From an uncultured Actinomycetes bacterium (lineage in GTDB: Bacteria > Actinomycetota > Thermoleophilia > RBG-16-64-13), in NCBI GenBank assembly GCA_963814365.1, contig CAWFCL010000010.1, forward strand, positions 7,342 to 71,341: 64,000 nt of DNA, given 5' to 3'. This document shows positions 16,713 to 46,431 of this stretch, piece by piece (the first letter of the stretch is position 1; each line of letters begins with the position of its first letter). The notes beneath the pieces were generated by a model. That model was not told where the DNA came from. It ran no database searches and was given only the letters and a program-made list of their open reading frames with translations. Made by a program: the position numbers and the translations under genes.

Positions 16713-16831
16713 GATTGACAGCGTAATCCCTTCACTGCAATCTGGTGTTAACGCTCGGTTACCTATATGTTAAAAGTCGGGTCACGCCAGATCGACTGGC
16801 CAAGCCACAACTGAGAGCGGAGGTGGCGCGG

Positions 16832-17536
16832 ATGGAGCCGGAGAGCAAGTGCATCCTCCTGGTCGAGGACGACCCGACCATCTCCGACCTCCTGGCCTAC
16901 AACCTGACCCGCGCCGGATACGAGGTGCTGCAAGAAGGCAACGGTCGCGCGGGGCTCGAATCGGCCCTCAATCACCAGATAGACCTGGTGCTCATGGACC
17001 TCATGCTCCCCGGGCTGGACGGCATGACGGCGGCCAAAGAGGTCCGCCGGCGCAAGCCGGACGTCCCCATCATAATGCTCACCGCTCGCGGAGAGCGCGA
17101 GACCATCTTGGAGGGCTTCGAATCCGGTGCCGACGACTACGTGACCAAGCCGTTCGACCTGGACGTGCTGCTGGCCCGCATAGCCGCGCGCCTGCGGCGC
17201 AGCCCGTCCGCGTCGCCGCCGGCCGAGGCGGCCGCGGCTCCCCTGGTGATAGAAGACCTGACGCTGGATAGCGACGCCCACGAGGCGCACACCAGTCTGG
17301 GTAAGATCGCCCTCAACCCAAAGGAGCACGACCTCCTCGCCCTGCTGCTGTCTCGGCCCGGCCATCTCTTCCCTCGCGAGGAGATAGTCCAGAAGGTCTG
17401 GCACCAACGCTACATGCCGGCCTCCCGTACGCTCGACGTGCATGTGCGCCACGTGCGCGCCAAGCTCGAGGAGATACAAGCCAAAGTCACCATCCTCGCC
17501 GTTCGCGGCGTGGGTTACAGGCTGGGGCCAGTCTGA
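16832..17536 (+). CDS. OmpR/PhoB-family response regulator (Pho-type by context)
   Basis: ATG at 16832 with GAGCGGAGG RBS. Receiver ILLVEDDPTISDLL...DLVLMDLMLPGLDG...TKPF. Winged-helix C-terminus LRTLDVHVRHVRAKLE...VRGVGYRL. Confidence 0.9.
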   Translation: MEPESKCILLVEDDPTISDLLAYNLTRAGYEVLQEGNGRAGLESALNHQIDLVLMDLMLPGLDGMTAAKEVRRRKPDVPIIMLTARGERETILEGFESGADDYVTKPFDLDVLLARIAARLRRSPSASPPAEAAAAPLVIEDLTLDSDAHEAHTSLGKIALNPKEHDLLALLLSRPGHLFPREEIVQKVWHQRYMPASRTLDVHVRHVRAKLEEIQAKVTILAVRGVGYRLGPV

Positions 17537-19316
17537 TGCGCCTGCGCTGGAGACTACCCCTGGCTTTCGTGCTGGCGACTGCCGTTCTCGCGGGCGCGGT
17601 GGCACTGGTCTCGGCCCTGATGCTGCGGGGACTGTTTCTAGACCGCTTGCAGGACGACATGGCTCGACACGCGCAGCAATACGCAGCCGTCCTTTCCTTG
17701 GCAGGCGACGAGGCCACCACCCCGGATTCCCTACAGGCACTCACGAAGGCTACCGGCTCGGCGAGCGAGGTCAGACTGACCCTGATATCCAAGGACGGTA
17801 CGGTGCTGGCAGACTCCGAGGCCGAACCCGCTGCCCTGGACAACCACGCGACCAGGCCCGAGGTAGCTCAGGCGTTGGCCGGACACGAAGGCAGAGCCCG
17901 CCGCGACTCGGCCACCTTGGGTGTGGCGGAAGTCTACGTGGCCATCCCGCTGCCACAGAGTGAGTATCCCTGGTCGCAGGGAGCCCTCCGCGCCGCGCTC
18001 CCTGCCACTCGCGTCGATGAGACGGTGTCGGCCTCTTGGCGCATCCCCCTGATCGTCTGGGCCGTGCTACTGCTGCCTACCATCGCTATCGCCTACCTCT
18101 TCTCCCGCTCGCTCACTCGGCCCATAGGTCGCCTGGTGGGCGTGGCCGGCCGCGTAGCCGACGGCGACCTCGCCGCCCGCAATGCGGAGCTCCGCCGCGA
18201 CGAGTTGGGCCAGCTGGCGCGCGAACTCAACCGCATGACCGAACAACTGGAGCGCCGCGCCGACGAACTGGCCCGTGAGTCCGAACGCTCACGCGGAGTG
18301 CTGCGAGCCATGACCGAGGGCGTGGTACTGGTGGACGGCGACGGCAATCTGGTGCGCAGCAACCCGGCCACCACCGCGATACTGGGCGTCGAACTCGAGG
18401 GCAAAGAGGGCAAGCCGCTGGTGCACCTGGCCCGAGCCTTCCCCGCCGTCCGGCTTGCCCAGGCCGCCCGCGAAGCGGGCCGGCCCCTCACCGAGACAGT
18501 CGACTTACCCGACGGGCGGTCGCTCATGGTGGAGACGGTACCGCTTGGGTCCACGGCCAGAGAGCAGGGGCATACCCTCTTCGTCGTCCGCGACGAGACC
18601 GAACGCCGCAACACCGAAGCCATGCGACGCGACTTCGTCGCCAACGCCTCTCACGAGCTCAAGACCCCGCTCGCGGGCCTTTGTCTTACTCACCGACACT
18701 CTTGATGTCGCCCTGGGTGATGATCCTGAGAAGGCTCTGCAGTGTGTCGAGCGCCTGCGCACGGAGACTCAACGCCTCACCAACCTGACCAGCGATCTGC
18801 TCACCCTCTCTCAACTGGAAGAGCCGGAGACCCTCTGGGTCGACCACGTCGGCCCCGTGGACCTCGCCGCACTCGCGCGCGACGCCATCGAAGAAGTCAA
18901 GCCTCTCGCCGAGGCCAAACACCAGGAGTTGATCGTCGAAGCCCCCGCCGAGCTCGAACTCCAGGGCGACTCGGCGGCTCTGACCACGCTTATCCGCAAC
19001 CTACTGGACAACGCCATCCGCTATACCGACGAATCCGGTCACATCAGCCCTCCGTCTGCAGACGGCTGAAGACCCAGCCGGACACGGCTTCGCGATGCTG
19101 ACGGTGGAGGACGACGGACCCGGCATACCCGCCGCCGATCAGGCACGCATCTTCGAGCGCTTCTACCGAGTGGACAAGGCTCGCTCAAGAGAGACCGGCG
19201 GCACCGGTCTAGGACTCAGCATCGTCAAGCACGTGGTCGATAACCACGCAGGTCAGGTGACCGTCCAGAGCACGCTGGGCGTGGGCTCCACCTTCACCGT
19301 CACTTTGCCCAGGTAG
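17536..19316 (+). pseudogene. PhoR/SenX3-like sensor histidine kinase (TM-HAMP-PAS-HisKA-HATPase), two frameshifts as assembled
   Basis: There are three consecutive ORF pieces. H-box FVANASHELKTPLAG|(shift ~18680, TTT run)|LLTDTLDVAL. N/G boxes ...[16 protein letters not shown]|(shift at CCC 19048-19050)|[27 protein letters not shown]...[11 protein letters not shown]. Confidence 0.85.
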
Positions 19317-22840: not shown

Positions 22841-24262
22841 CTAGTCCGTCCCTCTCGGCAGAGTGACCGTGAACGTGGAGCCCTCGCCCTCGCGGCTGTG
22901 GGCTGTCAGTGCCCCCATGTGGTTCTCGGCGATCTGCTGGGCAAGGGCTAGGCCCAGGCCTGCCCCAGGGGTCGAACGCGAAAGGTCGCCTCTGTAGAAG
23001 CGCTCAAAGATGTGGGGCAGCCGCTCGGCCGCTATCCCCACGCCCGTGTCGATTACCTCGACCACCACGCTGCCCTGTCTTGAGAATACAGAGACTGTGA
23101 TCCCGCCCCGGTCAGTAAACTTGATCGCATTCTCCACCAGGTTCACCAAGAGCCTTATCAGACTGTCGCTGTCACCCCGGACGATGAGGCCGGGCTCCAG
23201 CCGGCACTCCACTGTCAGCTCCTTGGCCTGTGAAAGCGGACGCAACGCCTCGCACACGTCATGCACCAGACTCGTCACGTCCAAGGGCGTGAACTCGGTG
23301 GCCGCAGCCCGGCCGCTGCGCGCCAACTCCAGCAATCTCTCCACCAGGGCGCGTAGTCGCGCGGCTTCGTCAGCCAGGTCATCCAGAGCCTGCTCGTAGT
23401 CCGCCGCCGCGCGTGGCTCCGACCTCACCACTCCGAGTATGGCTTCCATAGCGGCCAAGGGCGTACGCAGTTCATGAGACGCGTCGGCCGCGAACCGGCG
23501 CTCTCGCTGAAACGACTGGTCGAGCCGTTCGAGCATCTCATCAAAAGTAGAGGCCAAGCAACCGACCTCGTCACCGGATTCCGAGAGGTCCAACCTAGCC
23601 GATAGATCCTGCGCAGAGATACGTCTGGCGGTCTTGGTCATCGCACCCAGGGGCGCGAGGGCGCGCCTAGCTACCAGGTAGCCCACGAGACCAGTCACCA
23701 GCGCCACTACTCCGCCGCCTATCAGGAGGGCATCAAGCAGGCTACTCATAGCCTGCTTCAGAGATTTGGAGTCACGCAGAGCCTGGACGAACCCCACTAC
23801 CTCGCCGCCTCGCACCAAGGGCATCGTGTAGACACGATAGTCGCGACCGCTGACCTCGTCGACGGTGTACGAGAAGGCGCTCGTGCCGCTACGCACGGCT
23901 GCGAGAGCGGCCGGGTCCAACGGCAGGCTCCCCCATACCCCATAGCCCGCTACAACTCTCCCGGCAGTATCAAGATACTTGATCGAGTCACCCTGGGCGA
24001 GCAAGACCTCCAGCTCCAGGTTCACCTCCTCCATGCTCTCTGTGATGACAAGCTCTCCCTCCGCCACACTGACGTCCGAGGAGGCAAGTAAAGCACTGAC
24101 CTGGAGCGCATCATCGAAAGTGCGGAGCAGCGAGCGCTCCACCTGAAAGTACGCAAAGACGCCAAACACCAGCAGCGCCACCAACACTAGAGCGGCCGCC
24201 CACAGGCCTAGACGGGTTCGCAGCGAGCGAACGCGTGGCAGAGACAGCTTCGTCAGCCGCAC
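22841..24262 (-). CDS. membrane sensor histidine kinase (2 TM, HAMP, HisKA, HATPase_c)
   Basis: H-box FAADASHELRTPLAAM, N-box LVNLVENAIKFT, G-boxes DTGVGI and GAGLGLALA. Confidence 0.9.
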   Translation of the reverse strand: MRLTKLSLPRVRSLRTRLGLWAAALVLVALLVFGVFAYFQVERSLLRTFDDALQVSALLASSDVSVAEGELVITESMEEVNLELEVLLAQGDSIKYLDTAGRVVAGYGVWGSLPLDPAALAAVRSGTSAFSYTVDEVSGRDYRVYTMPLVRGGEVVGFVQALRDSKSLKQAMSSLLDALLIGGGVVALVTGLVGYLVARRALAPLGAMTKTARRISAQDLSARLDLSESGDEVGCLASTFDEMLERLDQSFQRERRFAADASHELRTPLAAMEAILGVVRSEPRAAADYEQALDDLADEAARLRALVERLLELARSGRAAATEFTPLDVTSLVHDVCEALRPLSQAKELTVECRLEPGLIVRGDSDSLIRLLVNLVENAIKFTDRGGITVSVFSRQGSVVVEVIDTGVGIAAERLPHIFERFYRGDLSRSTPGAGLGLALAQQIAENHMGALTAHSREGEGSTFTVTLPRGTD

Positions 24263-24272
24263 GCCGGACGCT

Positions 24273-24956
24273 CTAGCTCTTCGGCCCGGCGGTGAACTGG
24301 TAGCCGATACCCCTTATGGTCTGGATCAGCTTCGGCTCAAAATCGTCGTCCATCTTTCTCCGCAGAGTACGGACGTACACGTCCACGGCATTCGATTGAT
24401 GAAAGACATTGTAGTCCCACACGTGCTCGGTGATCATGGTGCGAGTCAATACTCGGCCGGCATTGCGCATCAGATACTCCAATATTGCGAACTCCCGGGC
24501 CGAGAGAACGATGTCCTTGCCCGCCCGAGTGACCTGATGCTTCGAAGGATCCAAGGAGAGGTCGGCGATGCTGAGAGTCGTACTCCGGGAGCCATCCGTG
24601 GCCCGTCGCGCTAGCGCGCGCAGCCGCGCCAGAAGCTCCTTCATGGCGAAGGGCTTGACGAGGTAGTCATCCGCTCCCGCGTCGAGACCGGCTACGCGAT
24701 CATCGACTGTGTCCCGAGCGGACAGCATGAGAACCGTGGCTTTCATCCCCCGCTTGCGTATCTCCCTGCACACCGTGAGACCGTCCACCTCCGGCAGCAG
24801 GATATCGAGGATCATAGCATCATAATCTGCCTTCTCTACCCAGTCCAAGGCCTCCGAGCCCGTATACGCAACATCTACGGCATAACCCGCTTCTTCCAGC
24901 CCCCGTCGCAGATAGGCCGATATCTTCCGTTCGTCTTCGACAAGAAGGACTCTCAT
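24273..24956 (-). CDS. OmpR-family DNA-binding response regulator
   Basis: MRVLLVEDERKI...DAMILDILLPEVDG...VKPF, with winged helix VDVYVRTLRRKMD...IRGIGYQF. Confidence 0.95.
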   Translation of the reverse strand: MRVLLVEDERKISAYLRRGLEEAGYAVDVAYTGSEALDWVEKADYDAMILDILLPEVDGLTVCREIRKRGMKATVLMLSARDTVDDRVAGLDAGADDYLVKPFAMKELLARLRALARRATDGSRSTTLSIADLSLDPSKHQVTRAGKDIVLSAREFAILEYLMRNAGRVLTRTMITEHVWDYNVFHQSNAVDVYVRTLRRKMDDDFEPKLIQTIRGIGYQFTAGPKS

Positions 24957-25051: not shown

Positions 25052-26500
25052 CTACCCCGGCAGCGACACCGAGAAGGTCGAACCCACACCCTCTTCACTC
25101 GCCACGTCGAGGCGTCCACCGGCTCGCTCGACCAGGCGCTTGGCTATGGTCAGACCCAGCCCGCTGCCCTCCAGCCCTCGCGTCTGCGGACGTTTCTCGC
25201 GGAAGAACTCGGTCAGCACTCGGTCGAGGTTCTCACTGGAGATGCCTATGCCGGTGTCCTTGACGTCTATGCGCACCCACTCCCCGTCACGCAGTGCGGT
25301 CACGGTCACAGAGCCGCCGTCGCGGTTGTACTTCACCGCGTTGCCCACCAGATTCGAGAGCACCAGCTCCAGATCGCCGTCTGGCAATAGCACAGGCGGA
25401 AGCTCCGGCTCCAGATCCGTCCGCACGGTGATGTCGCGGGCAGCGAGCCTATCCGCCTCGAGGCCCAAGACCGCGTCCACGGCCGAGGCGACGTCCTGTA
25501 GTCGTGGCTCGGTTTGGGGCTGCTCGCTGCGCGAGAGCGACAGCAGGTCGCCGATGAGCTGCACCAGGCTGTCGATGCGGTCCTCCGCCCGGCGCAGCAT
25601 GGGCAAGTAGCTATCCAGGTCCTCACCCAGGCTCTTGTCGGTGGCCACCTCGATCATCGCGCGCACGGCTCCTAACGGCGACTTCATCTCGTGCACCATG
25701 GTACGGATGAAGCGCTCCTTCTCCATGGCCAGACGCCGGACCTGGGAGATGTCCGACAAGGTAAGGATGCGCCCCAGCGCAGTGCCGTCCTCGGCCCTGA
25801 AGGTGACGATGCTGGTCATGTAGGTCTCGTCCCCGATGGCGAGCTGGCCCACAGTGCGATCCTTCTGGGGAGCCGCCAGAGCCTCGCTCAGCGAGGACAA
25901 GGGACCTTCCTGCAGCAGTTCGACGGCGGACCGACGGAGCGCCTCTTCTTCGGGAAGCCCAAGCAAGACGGTCATGGCCCGGTTGGCGAGCACCACGTCT
26001 CCGTCGCGGTTCACCACCATCACTGCGTCACGCAGCGAGCTGACCAGAGAGTGCGTCTGAGTCTTCTCCTCGGCCAGGGCCAGCAGCCCGGCTTCGTGTT
26101 CCACGCGGAGCCGCTCGGCCTCGTCGCGCGCCCGTTTGTGCCTCACCAGGGTCTCGACCACGCCCAGCAGGTCGTCAGGCAGGAACGGCTTGGGCAGGAA
26201 GAAGTCGACGCCCTCCCGGGTGGCGGCGATGGCGGTGTCGATGTTCGCGTAGGCGGTGATCATGCAGGTCATCAACTGCATGCCCTCGCTCTTGATGGCC
26301 TGTTGGATGGTGAGACCGTCCATGTCGGGCAGACGGTAGTCCAGCAGTCCGACGTCGTAGTCGCTGCTGCGCAGGAGCGTGAGGGCCTCCTCGCCCGTAG
26401 CCGCCTCTTCTACCTCGTACCCTTCGATCTCGAGTATCTGGCGGATGCCGGAGCGCACGCCGTACTCATCGTCTACCACTAGGATGCGGGCCGTGTTCAT
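25052..26500 (-). CDS. hybrid receiver-PAS-histidine kinase
   Basis: ATG at 26500 (MNTARILVVDDEYGVRSG) overlaps the upstream gene's stop. It has a receiver domain, a PAS-like segment, H-box MVHEMKSPLGAV, N-box LVGNAVKYN and G-box GSGLGLTIA. Confidence 0.9.
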   Translation of the reverse strand: MNTARILVVDDEYGVRSGIRQILEIEGYEVEEAATGEEALTLLRSSDYDVGLLDYRLPDMDGLTIQQAIKSEGMQLMTCMITAYANIDTAIAATREGVDFFLPKPFLPDDLLGVVETLVRHKRARDEAERLRVEHEAGLLALAEEKTQTHSLVSSLRDAVMVVNRDGDVVLANRAMTVLLGLPEEEALRRSAVELLQEGPLSSLSEALAAPQKDRTVGQLAIGDETYMTSIVTFRAEDGTALGRILTLSDISQVRRLAMEKERFIRTMVHEMKSPLGAVRAMIEVATDKSLGEDLDSYLPMLRRAEDRIDSLVQLIGDLLSLSRSEQPQTEPRLQDVASAVDAVLGLEADRLAARDITVRTDLEPELPPVLLPDGDLELVLSNLVGNAVKYNRDGGSVTVTALRDGEWVRIDVKDTGIGISSENLDRVLTEFFREKRPQTRGLEGSGLGLTIAKRLVERAGGRLDVASEEGVGSTFSVSLPG

Positions 26501-26926
26501 GCCGGGACGGTCACAGAGTGATCGTCGGAAGCGCCGCCCAGGAACTCCTGAGCTATGCCCAGCAACTGCTTGCCGGTGGCGGGCTTGTCTACGAACCGGT
26601 CCAAGCGGGTCCATGACAAGAGTCCCTTGCCCTCTTGGTCGAAGCGCTCACCGGTCTCTCTCGCGACCCCGCTCAACATCACCAGCGGCACGTGGGCGAA
26701 CTGCTCGCGCTTGCGTATCTCGTAGGCCAGGCGGAAACCGCTGTCGTAGCGCTCCATCATCAGGTCGATGAAGATCAGGTCGGGAGTGTTCGTCGCCAGG
26801 AACTCGTAGAGCTTCTTCGCTGCTCTCGACGGTGTGCACGGTGTGACCGCGGCTGCCGAAGAACGCTGACTGGGCAAGCAAGAAGTCCCGGTCGTCATCT
26901 ACGAAGAGGATGTTCCAGCCGCTCAT
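26497..26926 (-). pseudogene. single-domain CheY-like response regulator, one frameshift as assembled
   Basis: MSGWNILFVDDDRDFLLAQSAFFGSRGHTVHTVESS|(shift ~26815-26825)|AKKLYEFLATNTPDLIFIDLMMERYDSGF...PLVMLSG...DKP. Both ends overlap their neighbours by ATGA. Confidence 0.8.
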
Positions 26927-28947
26927 ACGGGGCTCCTTTCGCCGCCTGCACGGACCATGGGTATCTCGACATGAAAAGTGGTGCCGGCACCGGGTTCTGA
27001 ATCGAACCAGATGTTGCCTTGGTGCATCTTGACGATGCCGTACGAGATGGGCAGCCCCAGACCCGTACCCTTGCCGATACTCTTGGTGGTAAAGAAGGGT
27101 TGAAAGACCTTGTCAGCGGCCCCGGCGCCTATGCCGCTACCTTGATCGGACACGCTGAAGCGCACCCGCCCAGTATCGAGGTGCGTGCGGGCGATCACTC
27201 GTACCTCGCCCGAGCTACCCTCCATGGACTCCACCCCGTTCTTGATCAGGTTGACGAGCACCTGCGTCATCTGGTCGCGATCGAGGTCCGCGTACGATCC
27301 CGGCGTGACATCCACGACTATCTCGACCTCGCGGTCGGGACCCGGCGGCAGATTGCAGGCCGCTCCATCAGCGGCCGACGCCACCAACTCCTCCAACGAC
27401 ACGGACTCGATGCGAACGCGACTCTGCCGGGCGAAGTCCAACAGGCTGCCGATGATCTTCTTGCAGCGCTCCGACTCCTCAGACATCAGCTTGAGATCGT
27501 GGTCCAGGTCGCCGCGATCCTGTAGCTTGCGCTGCAGTATGTGGGAGTAGAGCAGGATGGTGCTGAGAGGATTGTTGAGCTCATGAGCCACGCCCGCCGC
27601 CATCTGGCCCATCGACGCAAGCTTCTCGCTGTTGATGAGGTGGCGATGCACGTCGCGCAGGTTGTTCCACGGCACGTTCAGCTCGCTGCAGACCCGTTCA
27701 GACTGGTCGATTATGAACGGTAGACACATGGCTTCCTCGGCCATGCCTTCGTAGACTGCCCTGGCTTTTGTCCGGCACGTCGCGTATCCGCAGGCGCCGC
27801 AATTGAGTTCGTCCTCGGGGAAGAACTTGTTGGTGTGAGCCAAGATCTCGCGGATCTCTTCCTCAGTGGGACCCACCGACCTCTGGTCGTCAGGCTCGAA
27901 GCGGCGAATCAGCGACAAGGACGCGCCGCCGGACTCGTAGGCCGGCATGGCACCTTCGTCTTGGCGATGCCGGCTGGCCTCGGCGAATTCGGCCACGCGG
28001 CGCCGGCGGGTCACCCCAGGCTCGTCGCTCCCGGCGCCGGGTCCCGCATAGCAGCCTCGGCACATCAGGGCCTCTACCAGTAGGGGGCCGGCCAATTTGC
28101 TGGAGAGGCTATCCAGCGTCTCCACCGTCTCGTCCTTGCCACTCACCACCACCAGGCGGGGGTCCATGACACCGTCCCCTATGCCGGCGCTCTCGAACAT
28201 GCCGCCCGGGACCGGATAGATGCGAGCCGTGCCCGCATACGGCGGGTCAAAATCCTTCGGCGGCGCTAGGGCCGGGTCCGCACCCCGCGCGGCCAGGACA
28301 CGGTGCACCTCGTCCAACGTCAACACCTCATCCACGACCCCGACGATCTCTGGGTCCAGTATCTCCGCCTTTTTGGCCACGCAGGGGCCGATGAAGACGC
28401 AACGTACATCCTGCCCGTAGCGCCGCTTGACCGCCAGGGCGGTCGCCACCATGGGCGAGACCAGGGGCATGATGGAGGCTGTGAGCTCCGGGTGATACTT
28501 GCGCACGTAAGACACGACCGCCGGGCAAGCGCTTGCGATGTGTAGACCCGTCGGGTCGCTCGCCAAGAGGTCGCGGCAGGCTTCGTTCACTAGGTCGGCT
28601 CCGTACGCCACCTCGACCACATACGTGAAACCGGCCTTGCGTAGAGCGCCGACGATCTGTTCCGGCGGCGCCGTGAACCCTACCGGGAACGAGGGAGCCA
28701 ACAGCGCGGCGGCGATGCCGCGATCGAGAAGGGCGAGAGTGCCCTCGATACTGCTCGTGTACGCTTTGGCACCCTGCGAGCACACCATGGTGCAGTTGCC
28801 ACAGCTGATGCAGCGGTCGGCCACCACCGAGGCCTGGCCGTCCTCGATGCGGATTGCCTTGGCCGGGCAGTCCCGCACGCAGGTGTAGCAGCGACGACAG
28901 TTCTGTTTGATAGTGGTTATGACGCCGGTCATGGTCTCTTGGCTCAC
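26923..28947 (-). CDS. sensory [FeFe]-hydrogenase-like domain (HydS-type) fused to a histidine kinase
   Basis: 674 aa intact ORF. It contains two 4Fe-4S ferredoxin motifs (CRRCYTCVRDCP, CISCGNCTMVC). The H-domain motifs are ASACP (canonical TSCCP), GPCVAKKAE (MPCxxKxxE) and EALMCRGCYAGPG (ExMxCxxGCxxG). CGACGYATC-x16-C forms a Cx2Cx4Cx16C motif. This is followed by HisKA (AAGVAHELNNPLSTI) and HATPase_c (NLIKNGVES, DQGSGI, GTGLGLPISY). Confidence 0.85.
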   Translation of the reverse strand: MSQETMTGVITTIKQNCRRCYTCVRDCPAKAIRIEDGQASVVADRCISCGNCTMVCSQGAKAYTSSIEGTLALLDRGIAAALLAPSFPVGFTAPPEQIVGALRKAGFTYVVEVAYGADLVNEACRDLLASDPTGLHIASACPAVVSYVRKYHPELTASIMPLVSPMVATALAVKRRYGQDVRCVFIGPCVAKKAEILDPEIVGVVDEVLTLDEVHRVLAARGADPALAPPKDFDPPYAGTARIYPVPGGMFESAGIGDGVMDPRLVVVSGKDETVETLDSLSSKLAGPLLVEALMCRGCYAGPGAGSDEPGVTRRRRVAEFAEASRHRQDEGAMPAYESGGASLSLIRRFEPDDQRSVGPTEEEIREILAHTNKFFPEDELNCGACGYATCRTKARAVYEGMAEEAMCLPFIIDQSERVCSELNVPWNNLRDVHRHLINSEKLASMGQMAAGVAHELNNPLSTILLYSHILQRKLQDRGDLDHDLKLMSEESERCKKIIGSLLDFARQSRVRIESVSLEELVASAADGAACNLPPGPDREVEIVVDVTPGSYADLDRDQMTQVLVNLIKNGVESMEGSSGEVRVIARTHLDTGRVRFSVSDQGSGIGAGAADKVFQPFFTTKSIGKGTGLGLPISYGIVKMHQGNIWFDSEPGAGTTFHVEIPMVRAGGERSPV

Positions 28948-30662
28948 TTGACCGCGGTAGTCTCTGCGAGCAGAGAACCGCTCCGGTCCACATAGCTACG
29001 ATGCAGCAGCCGGTGCGAGACCTCACCCAGCGGCCTGCCCAAGTACTCCTCGTACAGGGAGGCTACGCTCTGGTTCTGGTGCGAAGCGCGGGTCAGTGCC
29101 TGATCGTCGGTGTCGCGCAACTGATCGAGGCGCTTACGCAGATCGCCTGCTCCCGCCCCGTATGGCTGGCCCCCACCACCGGCGCACCCGCCCGGGCAGG
29201 ACATCACCTCGACGAAGTGCATGTCACGGAGCGTCTCCTCCAGAGCCTGACCGAGACGTCCCAGACCGTTCACCACCGCCAACTTGAGCGTGGTGTCGCC
29301 GGCCTCCACTGTGAAGCACTTGACCCCTTCCGGGCCGCGCGCCTCGGTAAGCGGACCTTCGGGCACCTCTGCCCCCACCATGGTGGCCGCTGTCCTGACC
29401 GCGGCCTCCATCACGCCTCCGGTGCCGCCGAACAGCCGGGCCGCGCCCGTCGCCTCGGCGAAGGGCGCGTCAAGAGGCATCCGCTCCTCACATCTGTCGA
29501 AGTCGATGCCGAACCGCTGCCATAGATCGCTCAGCTCACGGGTGGTGAGCACATAGTCCACGTCGCCCAAATCCTGAGCCTCGTACTTCTTGGCGGTGCA
29601 GGGCATCAGCGAGAGGATCACCAGCCGCTTGTGCCCTATGCCGGCGAGCTGGGGGTAGATCTCCTTGATGAGCGCCCCCGCCATCTGCTGGGGCGACTTG
29701 CAGCTGGACATGTGCGGTATCAGGTCCGGCCGATGCAACTCGACGTAGTTGACCCAGGCCGGAGAACAACTGGTGAACATGGGGAGCGGTCCGCCGTTCT
29801 GCAGTCTCTCGACCAGTTCGGTTGCCTCCTCCATGATGGTGAGGTCGGCCGCGAACCCGGTATCGAACACGGCAGCCACGCCGATGCGCTTGAGCGCAGC
29901 GGTCAGGTGTTCCAACATGGCGGGGACCGTGGGGGACTTGCTGCGCGCCGCCGCCAAGGTGGCCGGCACCGCCGGAGCGATCTGCGCCACCACGACCGTG
30001 TCGGGGTCGGCCAAGGCTGCGACCACCTCGTCCACGTGACTACGCTCCATCAAGGCTCCGGTGGGACAGACGCGCACGCATTGGCCGCAATAGGTGCAGC
30101 CCGAGACGTTGATGCCCTTGTAGAAGCCCGGACCCACTTGGGTGCGAAAGCCCCGATCGATGAAGTCGATGGCCCCGATACCCTGGATCTCATGGCACAT
30201 GGTCACACAACGACCACATAGCACGCACTTGTTGGGGTCGCGCCATATCGAGGGCGACGAGATGTCCAGCGGCTGGTCCTTCTTCATGCCCACGTACTGT
30301 CTGGGACGGGCGCCCACTTCTCGCGACAACTCGGCCAACTCGCAACTGCCGGAGCGGTGACACACCAAGCAGTCTTGCGGATGGTTGGCGACCAGAAGTT
30401 CGACTATTGCCCGGCGGGCCTTTAGGACGCGCGGCGTGTGCGTCTTGACAGACATGCCGTCCGCAGCGGTCAGCGTGCAGCTGGTCTGCAGCTTGGGCGA
30501 ACCTTCGACCTCCACCACGCACAGACGGCAAGAGGCGGAGGGACCGGGCGCCCCGTCCAAGGCACAGAGATGGGGGATATCTATGCCGGCTTTGCTCGCT
30601 ATCTTGAGTACCGTCTCGCCCGGCGCGAACTCGAGGACTCTTCCGTTGATGGTGATGCTCAC
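28944..30662 (-). CDS. hydA: [FeFe] hydrogenase catalytic subunit HydA (NuoG-like N-terminus)
   Basis: GTG start at 30662, 6 nt after AGGAGAG. N-terminal 2Fe-2S and His-ligated 4Fe-4S region (CRLCVVEV, HPQDCLVCHRSGSCEL), then 2x4Fe-4S (CVLCGRCVTMC, CTYCGQCVRVCP). H-cluster motifs are FTSCSPAW (non-canonical), MPCTAKKYE and EVMSCPGGCAGGGGQP. The tracked 701-aa ORF includes a spurious N-terminal extension over hydB. Confidence 0.9.
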   Translation of the reverse strand: MSITINGRVLEFAPGETVLKIASKAGIDIPHLCALDGAPGPSASCRLCVVEVEGSPKLQTSCTLTAADGMSVKTHTPRVLKARRAIVELLVANHPQDCLVCHRSGSCELAELSREVGARPRQYVGMKKDQPLDISSPSIWRDPNKCVLCGRCVTMCHEIQGIGAIDFIDRGFRTQVGPGFYKGINVSGCTYCGQCVRVCPTGALMERSHVDEVVAALADPDTVVVAQIAPAVPATLAAARSKSPTVPAMLEHLTAALKRIGVAAVFDTGFAADLTIMEEATELVERLQNGGPLPMFTSCSPAWVNYVELHRPDLIPHMSSCKSPQQMAGALIKEIYPQLAGIGHKRLVILSLMPCTAKKYEAQDLGDVDYVLTTRELSDLWQRFGIDFDRCEERMPLDAPFAEATGAARLFGGTGGVMEAAVRTAATMVGAEVPEGPLTEARGPEGVKCFTVEAGDTTLKLAVVNGLGRLGQALEETLRDMHFVEVMSCPGGCAGGGGQPYGAGAGDLRKRLDQLRDTDDQALTRASHQNQSVASLYEEYLGRPLGEVSHRLLHRSYVDRSGSLLAETTAVK

Positions 30663-30672
30663 GGCGACTCTC

Positions 30673-32664
30673 CTAGGCGACGAGGGCGATGGATTGTTTG
30701 GGACAAGCGTCGACACAGGCGCCGCAACCGATGCAGCGGTCGACCACGATGTAGTGAGCGGCCTTGCGCTCACCCACGATCGCCCCCGACGGGCACTGCT
30801 TCCTGCACGCCCCGCACCCGGTGCACGTCGCGTTATCCACGGCATAGATACGGAGCCCCTGACACACACCGGCAGGACAGCGGTCCTCCATGATGTGCGC
30901 CTCGTACTCATCGCGGAAGAAGCGGAGTGTGGACAGCACCGGATTGGCGGCCGACTGTCCCAGACCGCATAGCGACGTGTCCTTGATGGTCTCGGCCAAC
31001 TCTTCCAGATGGAGCAGTCCGCGGAAGCGCTCCAACCGCCCCACCTCATCGCCCACCGGGCGCTCCGTGAGAGCGGTCAGGATCTCGTGCATGCGGGTGG
31101 TGCCCTCGCGACAGGGGGCACACTTGCCACAAGACTCGTTGCGGATGAACTCCATGAAGTACTTGGCCACGTCCACCATGCAGGTGCGCTCGTCCATGAC
31201 CACCATGCCGCCCGAACCCATCATGGCGCCCAATTCCTGCAGCTTGCCGTAGTCGGTGGCCACGTCCAGGTGAGCTTCGGGGATGCAGCCCCCGCTGGGG
31301 CCACCTATCTGCACGGCCTTGATATCGTGACCCTCGGGTGCGCCCCCGCCGATGCCGCACACCAGGTCGCGCAGGGGCAGACCCACCGGCACCTCCACCA
31401 GACCGGTGTTGCGCACCCTGCCACTGAGCGCGAACACCTTGGTCCCAGCGGCCTCACCCAACCCCAGGTCGCGGAACCACTCCGCCCCGTTGCGCAGGAT
31501 GCCGGGGATGTTGGCCAGAGTCTCCACGTTGTTGAGCACGGTGGGCATGCCGTGAAGACCCGCTACCGCCGGGTACGGCGGCCGCGGCCGCGGCATACCC
31601 CGTCCGCCTTCGATGCTCGCCAAGATGGCGGTCTCTTCGCCACAGACAAACGCCCCGGCGCCCTGCTTGATCACCACATCAAAGTCGGTGAGACTGCCCA
31701 GGATGTTGGCGCCCAGGAGCCCGGCCGCCTTGCACTGCGCGATAGCGCTCTGCAGACGTTCGATAGCCAAGGGATACTCGGCGCGACAGTAGATGTAGCC
31801 CTTGCTCGCCCCGATAGTGTAGGCCGCGATGAGCATGCCTTCGAGCACGCGGAAGGGGTCACCCTCCAAGACTGCCCGGTCCATGAAAGCACCGGGGTCA
31901 CCCTCGTCGGCGTTGCAGATGAGGTACTTGGTGGCGGCCACTGTATCCAGGGCCACCTTCCACTTCTGCCCCGTGGGGAAGCCCGCCCCACCCCGTCCGC
32001 GCAGTCCGGACTCGATGACCAGGTCGCATACCTCTTCGCGGGTCATGGTGGTGAGCGCTCGGGCCGCTGCGGCGAAGCCGCCGGCGGCCAGGGCCGCATC
32101 CAACGAGGCGGGATCTACCAGCCCACAGTTGTCCAACACCACCCGGGTCTGGCGACTGAAGAACGGGGTGTCCATGACCAGGGGCACGTCCTCGAACCCC
32201 TCTGCCTGACCGTACCGTCCGTACAAGAAGCGATTGCGCAGGTCGCGCTTCTCAAAGACGGCCTCCAGGAACTCCCCGACGTTCTCGGGGCTCAGGTCGC
32301 AGTACGACAGGCGCGGACCGTCGTCGAGTCTGACGTCCACGAAGACCTCGCGCTGGCAGAACCCCACGCAACCGACCTCCACCAGGCTCGCCTGCACTGA
32401 GTGTTCCCGCAGATACGCTTCGATCTTGTCGATGACATGCAGGGCACCGTTCGCGCGGCCGCAGGTGCCGGCGCCGACGAAGAGCACGGTGCCCTCACCG
32501 CCACGCCGCGCGCTCTCCAGGCGCCGCCCCCTCAGGGCGCGGCACGCTTGGTCCGTATGACAGAGTGGTCCCGTCTCGACGCAGGCGATCAGATCTCTGC
32601 AAGGGCGTTCCGGCGAGTGCGTGCACTCATCACAGCAGGCCTCGACCAGCCGCGTCGCGCTCAT
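30673..32664 (-). CDS. hydB: NADH-binding FMN/Fe-S subunit HydB (NuoF-like) of bifurcating hydrogenase
   Basis: GLRGRGGAGFPTGQKW (FMN), ESCGKCAPCREG (N3 cluster), a thioredoxin-like 2Fe-2S N-domain (GTCGRANG ... GCVGFCQRE), and C-terminal 2x4Fe-4S (CTGCGACRKQCP, CIGCGACVDACP). Confidence 0.95.
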   Translation of the reverse strand: MSATRLVEACCDECTHSPERPCRDLIACVETGPLCHTDQACRALRGRRLESARRGGEGTVLFVGAGTCGRANGALHVIDKIEAYLREHSVQASLVEVGCVGFCQREVFVDVRLDDGPRLSYCDLSPENVGEFLEAVFEKRDLRNRFLYGRYGQAEGFEDVPLVMDTPFFSRQTRVVLDNCGLVDPASLDAALAAGGFAAAARALTTMTREEVCDLVIESGLRGRGGAGFPTGQKWKVALDTVAATKYLICNADEGDPGAFMDRAVLEGDPFRVLEGMLIAAYTIGASKGYIYCRAEYPLAIERLQSAIAQCKAAGLLGANILGSLTDFDVVIKQGAGAFVCGEETAILASIEGGRGMPRPRPPYPAVAGLHGMPTVLNNVETLANIPGILRNGAEWFRDLGLGEAAGTKVFALSGRVRNTGLVEVPVGLPLRDLVCGIGGGAPEGHDIKAVQIGGPSGGCIPEAHLDVATDYGKLQELGAMMGSGGMVVMDERTCMVDVAKYFMEFIRNESCGKCAPCREGTTRMHEILTALTERPVGDEVGRLERFRGLLHLEELAETIKDTSLCGLGQSAANPVLSTLRFFRDEYEAHIMEDRCPAGVCQGLRIYAVDNATCTGCGACRKQCPSGAIVGERKAAHYIVVDRCIGCGACVDACPKQSIALVA

Positions 32665-33118
32665 GCCGCCTCATCCTCGGCCGCGGACCCGCTGACCGCG
32701 TCCAGTAGCGCGTCGAGCTTCTCCACGGTCAGGTGCCCGTGGAACTCACCGTCCAATTTGATCACCGGAGCGATGGAACAGGCCCCGAGACACGCCACGC
32801 TCAACACCGAGAACCGGCCGTCGGCGGAGTTACCGTCGGAACGTAGCTTGAGCCTCCGCTGGAGGTGCTGCGCCAAGGTCAGGCTCTGCTTCACGTGGCA
32901 CGCCGTCCCCCTGCACACCTCTATGACGTGCTCACACAGAGGTACAAAGCGGAACTGGTTGTAGAAGGTGGCAACGCCGTACACACTGGCGACGGGAGTG
33001 CCCAAAGCCTCGGCCAACTCCGACCATAGCGGATTGCGCGAGGATACCCTTCTCTCTCTTGTAGCTCTTGCAGAAGGGGTATCAGGTCGTCCCGGCTGAG
33101 GTCGCTGCGTCCCTGCAA
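32661..33118 (-). pseudogene. hydC: 2Fe-2S subunit HydC (NuoE-like), one frameshift as assembled
   Basis: MQGRSDLSRDDLIPLLQELQEREGY|(shift at CCC 33047-33049)|SRNPLWSELAEALGTPVASVYGVATFYNQFRF...CRGTACHV...CLGACSIAPV. The stop overlaps the hydB start (ATGA). Confidence 0.85.
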
Positions 33119-33136
33119 GCATCGCCGCGACCGTGC

Positions 33137-33580
33137 TCACACCCGCCCGCCATTCTCGGGCAAGACGGCCCGCTCCGGGCTAGGACGGTCGAGCAGTTCC
33201 TTCACTTTGTCGGCAAGCTCGGCCAACTTCACCGGTTTCTGCATGAAGGTCTCTACCGGCAGGTCCTGCCCCAGCAGAGAGGCGATGACCTTCTCGCGGA
33301 CGTCTGTCTGCACGTTGAAGCCGGAGAGCATGAGGATAGGCATGTCGTGGGTCGGACCGTCGGTCTTGAGCGCACCGGCGAACACCATGCCTTCCTCGTC
33401 GTAGTCCATCATGACGTCCAAGATCATCAGATCGGGGCGTTTCTCGACGATGCGAGCGTAGGCCTCCTTGCTGTTTCCCGCCGTGACCACGGCATAGCCG
33501 CGCGCTGTTAGAAAGGCCTCCACCGACGCCACCAGGTCGGGGTCGTCGTCTACCACCAGGATCAACTTCTTGTCCATCAC
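33137..33580 (-). CDS. single-domain CheY-like response regulator
   Basis: KKLILVVDDDPDLVASV...DLMILDVMMDYDEEG...MLSG...QKPV. 147 aa. Confidence 0.9.
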   Translation of the reverse strand: MMDKKLILVVDDDPDLVASVEAFLTARGYAVVTAGNSKEAYARIVEKRPDLMILDVMMDYDEEGMVFAGALKTDGPTHDMPILMLSGFNVQTDVREKVIASLLGQDLPVETFMQKPVKLAELADKVKELLDRPSPERAVLPENGGRV

Positions 33581-33628: not shown

Positions 33629-34275
33629 TCAGTCTTCACGGCGGCTCAAGAACGAGAGCTTCTCGAGCTTGGCCGAGATGTCCATCGGTTCGATGAAGCA
33701 GTCCGGCGGGGCGCTTATCATCTTGGGTACGAAGTTCATGAACCCGCGCACCCCAGCATCCGCCGCTCTGTCCACTAGCTCCTGCAGACCGTCGGCCTTG
33801 GCAGCCAGAACGAGTATGCGGACGTCCATCTCTGCTATCACACTCTCCAGGTCGTCAAGCGAGTAGCACCGACAACCAGCGAAAACCCGTCCGATCTTGT
33901 CAGGGTCGGTGTCGAAGGCCGCGACCACGCGGAAGCCCCGCTCCTCAAACCCTCGATAGGAGAGGAGAGCCTGACCCAGGTAGCCCACGCCCACCACCGC
34001 GATGTTCTGCACCACGTCGGTGCCGACGATGCGGCTGATGGTGAGCGACATCTCCCGCACGTCATAGCCTTTGGAGATGTTGCCGAAGCTGCCGCAGACT
34101 GGCCAGATCGCGCCGCAGTTGGGCGGGCGTGACTCCCACCAGACGCCGCCAGACGATGAGAGTGTACGAACTGCACCCCATCGTGGCCGAGTTCTTCGAG
34201 AGCCCGGCGATAGGCACTCAACCGTTCGATGGTCCGGAGCGAGACACCGCGATCATTGCGAGAAGAGCCTGTCAC
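33629..34275 (-). pseudogene. rex: redox-sensing transcriptional repressor Rex, two frameshifts as assembled
   Basis: RTIERLSAYRRALEELGHDGVQFVHSHRLAA|(~34140)|LVGVTPAQLRRDLAS|(~34100)|CGSFGNISKGYDVREMSLTISRIVGTD..NIAVVGVGYLGQALLSY...RGFRVVAAFDTDPDKIGR. This gives a winged helix plus an NAD(H) Rossmann domain. Confidence 0.85.
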
Positions 34276-34312: not shown

Positions 34313-34330
34313 CTGTGAAGTCTTTCACAA
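34313..34330. promoter_or_regulatory. Rex operator upstream of rex
   Basis: CTGTGAAGTCTTTCACAA matches the known Rex box TTGTGAA-N4-TTCACAA at 17/18 positions. A second palindrome, GTGACA-CT-TGTCAC, lies at 34300-34313. Confidence 0.55.
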
Positions 34331-46409: not shown

Positions 46410-46431
46410 TGGTGCACGACCCGACCAGCCC

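What the first reader, a model, noticed from the sequence alone, without database searches (positions are those of the whole stretch)
26923..28947. Sensory [FeFe]-hydrogenase-like domain fused directly to a histidine kinase
This single intact 674-aa ORF carries two ferredoxin clusters and an H-domain. In the H-domain, L1 reads ASACP: the first Cys of TSCCP, the proton-relay Cys in catalytic enzymes, is Ala, as reported for HydS-type sensory hydrogenases. L2 (PCVAKKAE) and L3 (MCRGCYAGPG) are retained. The Cx2Cx4Cx16C motif typical of putative sensory (group C) hydrogenases follows. There is no PAS domain; the motif runs straight into a HisKA/HATPase kinase. This matches the bioinformatically defined but, to my knowledge, experimentally uncharacterised 'histidine-kinase-linked' sensory hydrogenase class. 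It sits immediately downstream of, and is start/stop-coupled (GTGA) to, the catalytic hydA it would be expected to report on.
Basis: partly seen in the sequence, partly recalled or inferred. Interest (0 to 1): 0.8.

Follow-up and report, generated by a model that had tools for sequence, protein, structure and literature searches.

The report
Hydrogenase-like sensor fused to histidine kinase
This is a real, intact gene in which a hydrogenase-type metal domain that has lost its proton-relay residues is joined directly to a signalling kinase, most likely so the cell can sense hydrogen gas. The type is widespread and already catalogued from genomes, but no one has tested it in the laboratory.

Summary
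The gene lies on the minus strand. It most likely starts at ATG 28932 (669 aa), not at the GTG that overlaps the hydA stop.

Pfam finds 2x[4Fe-4S] ferredoxin, an [FeFe]-hydrogenase H-domain, a C-terminal Cx2Cx4Cx16C Fe-S domain, HisKA and HATPase_c. No PAS is found, and there is no room for one.

- **H-cluster site:** All four H-cluster cysteines and the residues lining the 2Fe site are conserved. All five residues of the canonical proton path are replaced.
- **L3 is not canonical:** Its two cysteines are spaced Cx2C, not Cx3C. In a 117-representative sample this spacing goes with the kinase-, sigma54- and GGDEF-fused sensors. The PAS-only TmHydS-like proteins mostly keep Cx3C.
- **The fusion is genuine:** More than 100 full-length orthologues exist, and at least 543 stretches of species-representative genomes encode relatives. 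The 80 loci kept are all full-length and span more than 12 named phyla.
- **Conserved context:** The usual order is hydC-hydB-hydA, sensor kinase, then a single-domain receiver, often with a REC-HisKA kinase and Rex. No DNA-binding response regulator belongs to the module.

This is a new member of a kind known only from genome surveys (HydDB group C; "BfuT" sub-type V). H2-dependent signalling is inferred, not shown.

The parts
26923..28932 (-). hydS-HK: sensory [FeFe]-hydrogenase-domain histidine kinase, 669 aa from ATG 28932. The upstream in-frame GTG at 28947 would give 674 aa.
   Evidence: ORF and translation. Pfam architecture. Start inferred from orthologue L001 and the 669-aa gene call P0001. 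A single-frame tblastn match covers residues 1-669 at 81% identity.
28765..28908 (-). N-terminal 2x[4Fe-4S] ferredoxin domain (CxxCxxCxxxCP and CxxCxxCxxxC).
   Evidence: Pfam Fer4_10/Fer4_9. All eight Cys are invariant in 66 orthologues. Coordinates.
28039..28707 (-). H-domain (Fe_hyd_lg_C).
   Evidence: Pfam E 9.6e-42. The AF2 model reaches pLDDT about 90 in this region. Foldseek top PDB hits are [FeFe]-hydrogenases at E about 1e-18.
28522..28536 (-). L1 = ASACP. The proton-relay Cys (CpI C299) is Ala. The [4Fe-4S]H ligand Cys (C300) is kept.
   Evidence: Gap-free HMMER alignment to TSCCP of solved HydAs. C136 is invariant and A135 is >=90% conserved in orthologues. The TmHydS A131 parallel comes from PMC10055695.
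28363..28389 (-). L2 = GPCVAKKAE. M353 is Gly. C355, K358 and E361 are kept.
   Evidence: Alignments. Conservation.
28036..28074 (-). L3 = EALMCRGCYAGPG. The two Cys are spaced Cx2C (canonical is Cx3C). The M497 position is Leu.
   Evidence: Weak HMMER alignment that needs a one-residue gap. C291 and C294 are invariant. The Cx2C versus Cx3C split by output type is shown.
27724..27801 (-). C-terminal Cx2Cx4Cx16C putative [4Fe-4S] site (Pfam FeS, PF04060).
   Evidence: Pfam. The four Cys are conserved in 43/43 kinase-fused representatives. The motif is described for groups C and D in PMC8163306.
27613..27723 (-). 37-residue predicted helical linker between the Fe-S domain and the DHp. There is no PAS.
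   Evidence: AF2 secondary structure is helical here but pLDDT is below 50.
27424..27612 (-). HisKA (DHp) domain. The H-box is AHELNNPL, with the phospho-acceptor His at 27583-27585.
   Evidence: Pfam. H450 is invariant. Matches ZraS/FixL-type kinases in the PDB.
26956..27282 (-). HATPase_c catalytic domain with N, G1, F and G2 boxes.
   Evidence: Pfam. N561, D596/G598/G600, F610-F614 and G622-G626 are invariant.
28944..30662 (-). hydA: the large subunit of a HydABC-type [FeFe]-hydrogenase. It starts at GTG 30662 behind AGGAGA. Its L1 is TSCSP.
   Evidence: Pfam. Start site. Motifs. NCBIfam FeFe_hydrog_A scores above its cut-off.
30673..32664 (-). hydB (NuoF-like flavoprotein subunit).
32661..33140 (-). 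hydC (NuoE-like [2Fe-2S] subunit).
33137..33580 (-). REC1: a single-domain receiver whose stop overlaps the hydC start by 4 nt.
   Evidence: Pfam. The sequence carries DD, D, S and K signature residues. Conserved in L001-L010.
26497..26926 (-). REC2: a single-domain receiver whose ATG overlaps the sensor's TGA (ATGA). In this window it is broken by a +1 nt frameshift near 26807.
   Evidence: Intact 132-167-aa orthologues exist in L001 and L003-L005.
25052..26500 (-). REC-PAS-HisKA-HATPase hybrid kinase, the last gene of the conserved module.
   Evidence: Pfam. The true start at 26500 comes from tblastn. Synteny.
33632..34275 (-). rex (redox-sensing repressor). In this window it is split over three reading frames.
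   Evidence: tblastn with L001 Rex. NCBIfam identifies L001 Rex.
34314..34329 (.). Perfect palindromic Rex operator TGTGAAGTCTTTCACA, about 40 nt upstream of rex.
   Evidence: Similar sites lie upstream of rex or REC1 in related loci.

Best explanation
The gene encodes a cytoplasmic one-protein sensor kinase. Its input module is a HydS-type [FeFe]-hydrogenase made of two relay [4Fe-4S] clusters, an H-cluster site and a C-terminal 4-Cys cluster. Its output is a standard HisKA/HATPase transmitter.

Proposed mechanism:
1. (Inferred.) H2 binds or is slowly turned over at an H-cluster. Its catalytic proton path has been removed: C299A, E279A, S319M, E282D and R286S.
2. (Inferred.) The resulting redox or conformational change passes through the C-terminal Fe-S domain and a 37-residue helical linker to the DHp.
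3. (Inferred.) This shifts the balance between kinase and phosphatase activity at His450.
4. (Inferred from adjacency and conservation.) The phosphoryl group goes to the translationally coupled single-domain receiver REC2, and probably to REC1 and the REC-PAS-HisKA kinase.

The whole cluster is rex-REC1-hydCBA-sensor-REC2-REC-PAS-HK. It is tightly packed and carries a Rex operator, so hydrogenase control would combine NADH/NAD+ (through Rex) with H2 (through the kinase).

Shown here: the architecture, the motif positions, the conservation and the synteny. Not shown: cofactor content, the H2 response, phosphotransfer partners and the final output.
For: - **Architecture:** Pfam.
- **H-domain fold:** AF2 pLDDT about 90 in this region, with best PDB matches to CbA5H, HydABC HydA, DdH and CpI.
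- **H-cluster Cys:** L1 and L2 Cys align position for position with solved HydAs. All four Cys are invariant in 66 orthologues. In 43 kinase-fused representatives at 29-67% identity they are conserved in 42-43 of 43.
- **2Fe-site residues under selection:** P231 38/43, S232 34/43 (+4 Thr), S323 and P324 41/43 each, K358 34/43 (+5 Arg), E361 42/43.
- **Proton path:** The canonical residues are replaced, as in characterised sensory enzymes (PMC10055695; PMC8163306).
- **Kinase boxes:** Invariant in orthologues.
- **Synteny:** hydA ends <=400 nt upstream in 57 of the 72 loci that hold enough upstream sequence. A 121-167-aa ORF or a ~380-aa ORF follows in most loci. All 10 sampled are REC-only or REC-HisKA-HATPase respectively.
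- **Maturases nearby:** hydG and hydE directly follow the module in L066.
- **Rex control:** A perfect Rex operator lies upstream, with similar sites in relatives.
- **Operon structure:** No terminator-like site lies inside the cluster.
Against: - No experiment exists for any kinase-fused member.
- L3 has Cx2C instead of Cx3C between the [4Fe-4S]H ligand and the bridging Cys. The effect on 2Fe binding is unknown, and no characterised enzyme I know of has this spacing. TmHydS has Cx3C.
- A survey of Hydrogenedentota could hardly find the P1-P3 motifs in group C1 proteins and doubted that they sense H2 (PMC11406978).
- In TamHydS the C-terminal cluster is not reduced by H2. The simple model of a redox relay to the output domain is therefore questionable (PMC13104023).
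- No hydEFG maturase genes lie in this window.
- The module holds no DNA-binding regulator, so its output is unknown.
- REC2 and rex are frameshifted in this window.
- The AF2 model of the junction has low confidence.
Confidence: 0.6

Rival explanations
1. It is a redox or Fe-S sensor kinase, not an H2 sensor. The H-domain binds only a [4Fe-4S] cluster, as in Nar1-like proteins, or its clusters exchange electrons with ferredoxin or HydABC. The kinase would then report the redox state of the low-potential pool, or O2, rather than H2.
For: - The L3 spacing is non-canonical (Cx2C) throughout this clade.
- The proton-relay position is never Cys among the 60 Cx2C representatives scored.
- Published doubt exists that C1-type proteins keep P1-P3 (PMC11406978).
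- The protein has three accessory clusters.
- No hydEFG genes lie in the window.
Against: - Residues that contact only the 2Fe subcluster (P231/S232, S323/P324, K358, E361) are strongly conserved at 29-67% overall identity. That would not be expected if the site were empty.
- The gene is almost always next to hydA.
- The related enzymes TmHydS and TamHydS do bind a functional H-cluster (PMC10055695, PMC8163306).
Confidence: 0.22
2. It is a regulatory subunit docked on the HydABC complex (the 'BfuT' idea). It would read the enzyme's electron flux or state directly. Its single-domain receivers would act on the enzyme after translation rather than on transcription.
For: - The gene order hydC-hydB-hydA-sensor is tight and conserved across phyla.
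- A single-domain REC is translationally coupled to hydC in this clade. It recurs upstream of a second hydC'B'A' in Ignavibacteriales.
- No DNA-binding output lies in the module.
- The 2024 survey names the protein a T subunit.
Against: - L002 keeps rex-REC1-sensor-REC-PAS-HK with no hydCBA adjacent.
- The solved HydABC complexes that match HydA here are named as HydABC only, with no HydS-like partner in their titles.
- There are no interaction data.
Confidence: 0.12
3. The fusion is an assembly or indel artefact, or the gene is a decaying pseudogene.
For: The window does carry frameshifts in neighbouring genes: rex, REC2 and a HAMP kinase.
Against: - The same 669-700-aa architecture appears in >100 independently assembled orthologues at 61-87% identity.
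- All 80 genome loci kept match over about 650 or more of the 669 residues.
- The gene matches its orthologue in one frame over residues 1-669.
- Codon-position GC favours this frame (GC3 0.80).
Confidence: 0.01

Closest known systems
TmHydS, the putative sensory [FeFe]-hydrogenase of Thermotoga maritima (group C, M2f)
   Same: - It has two N-terminal [4Fe-4S] clusters, an H-domain and a C-terminal Cx2Cx4Cx16C cluster.
- Ala sits at the proton-relay position (A131) and Gly at the M353 position (G177).
- Local motifs are very similar: ITTACPVV and VFVGPCIAKK.
   Different: - TmHydS ends in a PAS domain and has no kinase.
- Its L3 keeps the canonical Cx3C spacing (IEASACYGSC), where this protein has Cx2C.
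- Its M497 position is Ser, where this protein has Leu.
TamHydS, Thermoanaerobacter mathranii (group D, M2e)
   Same: - It has no PAS domain.
- It has the N-terminal clusters and the C-terminal 4-Cys cluster.
- The M497 position is Leu and the canonical proton path is absent.
- Its gene lies next to a bifurcating hydrogenase (PMC8163306).
   Different: - It is a stand-alone protein. A kinase-like ATPase is a separate neighbouring gene.
- The M353 position is Ser, where this protein has Gly.
- It has been characterised biochemically; this protein has not.
'BfuT' sub-type V, a group C protein with a histidine-kinase domain downstream of bfuA in Hydrogenedentota, Calditrichota and Bacteroidota (PMC11406978)
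   Same: - The gene order is the same: hydC-hydB-hydA, then the sensor.
- Both have a kinase domain.
- Relatives in Hydrogenedentota (L022, L040, L065) and Calditrichaeota (L045) are 42-44% identical over the full length.
- The partner BfuA often reads TSCSP.
   Different: - It is known only from genome surveys, where HydDB filed it under C3.
- This copy is from an Actinomycetota (Thermoleophilia/Gaiellales-like) genome and adds rex, REC1 and a REC-PAS kinase to the cluster.
HydDB [FeFe] group C1, 'histidine kinase-linked (putative)' (PMC5037454)
   Same: The concept is the same: a putative H2-sensing [FeFe] hydrogenase that signals through a histidine kinase.
   Different: - In HydDB, 'linked' is defined by association with a kinase. 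Here the kinase is fused.
- Subgroup assignment needs the HydDB classifier, which I could not run.
HoxBC-HoxJ regulatory [NiFe]-hydrogenase and histidine kinase (HydDB [NiFe] group 2b)
   Same: It is a functional analogue. A slow, sensor-type hydrogenase controls a histidine kinase that governs hydrogenase expression.
   Different: - It uses an unrelated metal site and fold.
- Sensor and kinase are separate subunits, and HoxJ has a PAS-like region.
- Its output is a DNA-binding regulator (my own knowledge). None is encoded in this module.

Membership tests
[FeFe]-hydrogenase H-domain | Sequence and fold of the Fe_hyd_lg_C domain | tested here: met
   Pfam PF02906 at E 9.6e-42. Foldseek hits to CbA5H, HydA, DdH and CpI at E about 1e-18.
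[FeFe]-hydrogenase H-domain | Four H-cluster Cys (CpI C300, C355, C499, C503) positionally conserved | tested here: met
   L1 and L2 align position for position. The L3 Cys align with a one-residue gap. All four are invariant in 66 orthologues and present in 42-43 of 43 diverse relatives.
[FeFe]-hydrogenase H-domain | Canonical L3 signature ExMxCxxGCxxGGGQP (Cx3C) | tested here: not met
   The motif reads EALMCRGCYAGPG, which is Cx2C with Leu at M497 and GPG in place of GGGQP.
[FeFe]-hydrogenase H-domain | Second-sphere residues of the 2Fe site (A230/P231/S232, S323/P324, K358, E361) | tested here: met
   APS, SP and the K and E of PCVAKKAE are present and conserved.
[FeFe]-hydrogenase H-domain | Binds a [2Fe] subcluster and reacts with H2 | not testable with these tools
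   This needs maturation followed by FTIR, EPR or activity assays.
Putative sensory [FeFe]-hydrogenases (group C/D, HydS-type) | Loss of the proton-relay Cys and of the canonical proton-transfer path | tested here: met
   C299A, E279A, S319M, E282D and R286S, read from the alignments to HydA.
Putative sensory [FeFe]-hydrogenases (group C/D, HydS-type) | Two N-terminal [4Fe-4S] motifs plus the C-terminal Cx2Cx4Cx16C motif | tested here: met
   The defining description is in PMC8163306.
Putative sensory [FeFe]-hydrogenases (group C/D, HydS-type) | Gene located next to a group A hydrogenase operon | tested here: met
   It lies directly downstream of hydCBA. The same holds in 57 of 72 informative loci.
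M2f / TmHydS subclass | C-terminal PAS domain | tested here: not met
   No PAS family hit. Only 37 residues lie between the Fe-S domain and HisKA.
HydDB subgroup C1 versus C3 | k-NN classification against the HydDB reference set | not testable with these tools
   HydDB is not available here. PMC11406978 reports kinase-domain BfuT proteins as C3 and some HATPase_c-bearing proteins as C1.
HisKA-family sensor histidine kinases | H-box His plus N, G1, F and G2 boxes | tested here: met
   Pfam HisKA and HATPase_c. H450, N561, D596/G598/G600, F610-614 and G622-626 are invariant. ZraS and FixL chimeras are the best PDB sequence matches.
HisKA-family sensor histidine kinases | Dimeric DHp four-helix bundle joined to the sensor by a signalling helix | tested here: inconclusive
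   The AF2 monomer model predicts helices for residues 404-502, but pLDDT is below 50 over 401-462.
HisKA-family sensor histidine kinases | Adjacent cognate receiver | tested here: met
   REC2 is ATGA-coupled to the sensor. The pairing is conserved across phyla. In this window REC2 carries a frameshift.

The most novel reading that the evidence does not exclude
The Cx2C-L3 sensors (kinase-, sigma54- and GGDEF-fused) may be a distinct, uncharacterised variant of the H-cluster site. In the kinase branch the output may not be transcription. Instead, H2-dependent phosphorylation of single-domain receivers could act directly on the HydABC enzyme. One such receiver is translationally coupled to hydC. 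This would amount to post-translational control of a (con)furcating hydrogenase by its own product, layered on Rex control of transcription.
Probability: 0.12. Interest if true: 0.75.

Novelty: new member of a known kind. Interest (0 to 1): 0.4.

Why it matters
No sensory [FeFe]-hydrogenase has yet been shown to transmit a signal. The characterised examples, TmHydS and TamHydS, have no enzymatic output that can be assayed. [quoted passage not shown]

A sensor fused directly to a histidine kinase gives a one-protein readout: autophosphorylation with and without H2. That could settle whether these proteins sense H2 and how the signal leaves the H-domain.

The family is large, spans many phyla and sits almost always next to HydABC. 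It is therefore probably a main route by which anaerobes adjust fermentative H2 metabolism. This particular copy adds little beyond another lineage (Actinomycetota) and a clear operon context.

Tried and rejected
- **Plus strand:** Translating the given coordinates on the + strand gives a frame full of stops. The gene is on the - strand.
- **GTGA coupling:** Rejected in favour of ATG 28932.
- **S319:** I first read S319 of the proton path as retained. Re-indexing against the window's HydA shows it is Met; the retained Ser is S323.
- **hydE/F/G in the window:** Pfam over about 50 window ORFs found none. The radical-SAM gene at 49363-50733 has an HMPTM zinc ribbon and is not HydE or HydG.
- **Terminator and promoter scan of the cluster:** Nothing informative beyond the absence of internal terminators.
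- **BLASTP against the window's HydA:** It misaligns L1 by one residue because HydA reads TSCSP. I relied on the HMMER alignments to canonical enzymes instead.
- **NCBIfam:** No model for this protein; every hit is far below its cut-off.
- **Literature:** Searches for an experimentally studied kinase-fused sensory hydrogenase found none.
- **HydDB:** Classification could not be run.
Full report
**1. What is there**

The coordinates hold one uninterrupted ORF, but on the minus strand. The plus-strand frame is full of stops. Codon-position GC supports this frame (GC3 0.80, GC2 0.47).

Pfam finds the following, in 674-aa numbering:
- a 4Fe-4S dicluster domain (14-60);
- Fe_hyd_lg_C (81-303, E 9.6e-42);
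- the small FeS domain PF04060 (381-410);
- HisKA (446-508);
- HATPase_c (556-664).

No PAS family is found. Only 37 residues separate the last Fe-S cysteine from HisKA, so a PAS domain cannot fit.

**2. Start codon**

Three results argue against this:
- The gene call on record for this very protein is 669 aa (P0001).
- Most orthologues are 669-671 aa.
- In orthologue L001 the gene starts at the equivalent ATG, 11 nt after the hydA stop, with no overlap.

I therefore place the start at ATG 28932. The two genes remain only 11 nt apart.

**3. Is the H-cluster site intact?**

*Alignment to solved enzymes.* HMMER alignments to solved [FeFe]-hydrogenases put ASACP on TSCCP and GPC on MPC without gaps. 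The proton-relay Cys (CpI C299) is Ala and the cluster ligand C300 is kept. M353 is Gly. C355, K358 and E361 are kept.

*L3.* L3 aligns only with a one-residue gap. The two Cys are spaced Cx2C rather than Cx3C, and the M497 position is Leu.

*Proton path.* Comparison with the window's own HydA, whose numbering coincides with CpI at L1 and L2, shows the whole canonical path replaced. The changes are E279A, E282D, R286S and S319M, together with C299A.

*Conservation.* In 66 orthologues at 62-87% identity, the following are all invariant:
- the four H-cluster Cys;
- the eight ferredoxin Cys;
- the four C-terminal Cys;
- the A-P-S triad.

In 43 kinase-fused cluster representatives at only 29-67% identity:
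- the four H-cluster Cys are present in 42-43 of 43;
- P231 in 38, S232 in 34 (+4 Thr), S323 and P324 in 41 each;
- K358 in 34 (+5 Arg), E361 in 42.

Selection on residues that contact only the 2Fe subcluster is the best available argument that the site is occupied.

*Fold.* An AF2 model built on the orthologue alignment reaches pLDDT about 90 through most of the H-domain. Its best PDB matches are CbA5H, HydABC HydA, DdH and CpI at E about 1e-18.

**4. The kinase**

The H-box (AHELNNPL) and the N, G1, F and G2 boxes are invariant in orthologues. The nearest solved sequences are ZraS and FixL-type transmitters. The H-E-x-x-N arrangement is typical of bifunctional kinase/phosphatases; this last point rests on my own knowledge of HisKA kinases. 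The AF2 model of the linker and DHp is helical but of low confidence, with pLDDT below 50 for 401-462. The junction is therefore not resolved.

**5. The fusion is not an artefact**

- A search of 5.8 billion proteins returned >100 full-length relatives at 61-87% identity with the same Pfam architecture. The few that carry an NCBI name are mostly Thermoleophilia MAG proteins.
The 80 loci kept are all full-length and all come from metagenome-assembled genomes.
- Those 80 come from Actinomycetota, Ignavibacteria, Bacteroidota, Planctomycetota, Hydrogenedentota, Myxococcota, Desulfobacterota, Acidobacteriota, Verrucomicrobiota, Spirochaetota, Elusimicrobia, Melainabacteria, Calditrichaeota, Chloroflexi and Fibrobacteres.
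- The window gene matches its orthologue in one frame over residues 1-669.

**6. Where it sits among sensory hydrogenases**

An exhaustive HMMER search of 1.84 billion cluster representatives gave 10,040 hits at E<=1e-30. I examined 117 near-full-length representatives:
- 44 matched the kinase region of this protein. Pfam on 43 kinase-fused sequences, including this one, found PAS families in at most about 6, a receiver in 4 and GAF in 1.
- Of 67 others scanned, 15 carry a sigma54 AAA+ module and 2 carry GGDEF. PAS families were detected in about 20. By length, about 45 look like PAS-only proteins of roughly 520-640 aa.

L3 spacing tracks the output type:

| Output type | Cx2C | Cx3C |
|---|---|---|
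| Kinase-fused | 35 (6 more mis-scored, see below) | 1 |
| Sigma54-fused | 13 | 2 |
| PAS-only-like | 4 | 41 |

Six kinase-fused sequences scored as spacing 0 or 1. At least some carry an extra adjacent Cys that confused my pattern; the motifs printed show Cx2C for these (for example LEILCCN-GCIM).

TmHydS belongs to the Cx3C type. Mutagenesis primers give its motifs as ITTACPVV, VFVGPCIAKK and IEASACYGSC.

The proton-relay position is never Cys among the 60 Cx2C sequences scored (Pro 18, Ala 17, Thr 8, others 17). In the Cx3C set it is Cys in 5 of 47.

I did not see this L3 split described in the papers I read.

**7. Genomic context**

The genes are tightly packed on the minus strand, with 4-nt overlaps or gaps of about 11 nt. 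In order:
- rex
- REC1
- hydC (NuoE-like)
- hydB (NuoF-like)
- hydA
- the sensor kinase
- REC2
- a REC-PAS-HisKA-HATPase kinase

No terminator-like site lies inside the cluster.

The same eight-gene order occurs in L001 and L003-L005. tblastn finds all eight genes in the same order in L006-L008 and L010. L009 lacks a separate REC1 hit.

Across the 80 loci from the genome scan:
- hydA ends <=400 nt upstream of the sensor in 57 of the 72 that hold enough upstream sequence.
- The next gene downstream is usually a 121-167-aa ORF and otherwise often a ~380-aa ORF.
- All five sampled of each class are REC-only or REC-HisKA-HATPase respectively.

No DNA-binding response regulator belongs to the conserved module.

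Both single-domain receivers carry the acidic pocket, the acceptor Asp, and the Ser and Lys signature residues.

A perfect Rex operator (TGTGAAGTCTTTCACA) lies about 40 nt upstream of rex. Similar sites recur upstream of rex or REC1 in relatives from several phyla.

In a Victivallales locus, hydG and hydE directly follow the signalling genes. Both score above the NCBIfam cut-offs.

One relative (L002) keeps rex-REC1-sensor-REC-PAS-HK without hydCBA.

**8. Mechanism**

The best-supported reading is an H2-responsive, H-cluster-based sensor kinase. It feeds a small phosphorelay made of single-domain receivers and a receiver-kinase. The operon that encodes it is also under NADH/NAD+ control through Rex.

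What is shown is the architecture, the motif positions, the conservation and the synteny. Cofactor content, H2 response, partners and output are inferred.

Two cautions apply:
- The Cx2C loop has no characterised precedent that I know of.
- In TamHydS the C-terminal cluster is not reduced by H2. Signal transfer is therefore more likely conformational than a simple redox relay (PMC13104023).

The main rival is a redox or Fe-S sensor without a 2Fe subcluster. A second rival is a regulatory subunit acting on HydABC itself. That idea is suggested by a receiver translationally coupled to hydC, an arrangement that recurs in Ignavibacteriales.

**9. Comparison with what is known**

- HydDB defines group C1 as 'histidine kinase-linked (putative)' (PMC5037454).
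- A 2024 survey of Hydrogenedentota describes 'BfuT' proteins with a histidine-kinase domain downstream of bfuA. It finds them in Hydrogenedentota, Caldithrix and some Bacteroidota, and files them under C3 by HydDB. The same paper notes Ser at the fifth position of P1 in many BfuA subunits (PMC11406978).
- The window protein is 42-44% identical over its full length to homologues from those phyla.

It is therefore a new member of a kind known only bioinformatically. Whether HydDB would call it C1 or C3 I cannot tell. Searches found no biochemical or genetic study of a kinase-fused member.

**10. Verdict**

The feature is real, intact and well conserved. It overstates the novelty, is wrong on the start-codon coupling and misses the L3 deletion.

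Interest is moderate. Many other copies exist, including in cultured organisms. The family is nonetheless a practical route to testing how sensory [FeFe]-hydrogenases signal.

Noticed in passing
window 28944-30662 (-), L1 at HydA residues 297-301: The HydA next to the sensor reads TSCSP. The [4Fe-4S]H ligand Cys (CpI C300) is Ser, while L2 and L3 are canonical. The same variant occurs in 41 of about 77 hydA genes found in the 85 sensor loci, across many phyla. It has been noted before for Hydrogenedentota BfuA and for Melainabacteria (PMC11406978, PMC3787301), but I found no biochemistry on it.
   Followed up: partly
window 34314-34329: A perfect palindromic Rex operator (TGTGAAGTCTTTCACA) lies about 40 nt upstream of rex. 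Sites with at most one mismatch lie upstream of rex or REC1 in L001-L010 and in loci from other phyla. The sensor operon appears to belong to the Rex regulon.
   Followed up: partly
window 33632-34275 (rex), about 26807 (REC2), 17536-19310 (HAMP kinase): Three regulatory genes are frameshifted. rex is spread over three frames. REC2 has a +1 nt insertion relative to three orthologues. A HAMP-HisKA kinase is split from its HATPase part. The large genes between them are intact. These are either residual indel errors in the assembly or real pseudogenes; I could not tell which.
   Followed up: partly
window 33137-33580 (-); L026 13950-14315: A single-domain receiver sits directly upstream of hydC and overlaps it by 4 nt in this clade. 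The same REC-then-hydC arrangement precedes a second hydC'B'A' cluster in an Ignavibacteriales genome. This hints at a receiver functionally tied to the hydrogenase itself.
   Followed up: partly
L066 13600-16099: In a Victivallales genome the H-cluster maturase genes hydG and hydE directly follow sensor kinase-REC-REC-kinase. Both score above the NCBIfam cut-offs.
   Followed up: yes
L002 8748-13615: A related genome keeps rex-REC1-sensor kinase-REC-PAS-kinase with no hydCBA between REC1 and the sensor. The signalling module can therefore exist apart from the hydrogenase genes.
   Followed up: no
alignment A3 (proteins P0102-P0269): The same sensory H-domain plus C-terminal Fe-S module is also fused to sigma54 AAA+ activators (15 of 67 non-kinase representatives) and to GGDEF domains (2 of 67). 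These share the Cx2C L3 spacing with the kinase fusions.
   Followed up: partly
window 22841-24956 (-) and 16745-19310 (+): Two further two-component pairs (OmpR-type regulator plus HAMP kinase) flank the module. They are not conserved next to it in the related loci I examined (L001-L005). One of them lies next to phosphate-transport genes (PBP, PstC-like, PhoU).
   Followed up: no
window 1826-2785 (+); 44241-49087 (-); 58733-62111 (+): There is an IS-type integrase (HTH_38 + rve). There are also two xanthine-dehydrogenase-family molybdoenzyme clusters, with XdhC and MobA-like maturation genes between them.
   Followed up: no
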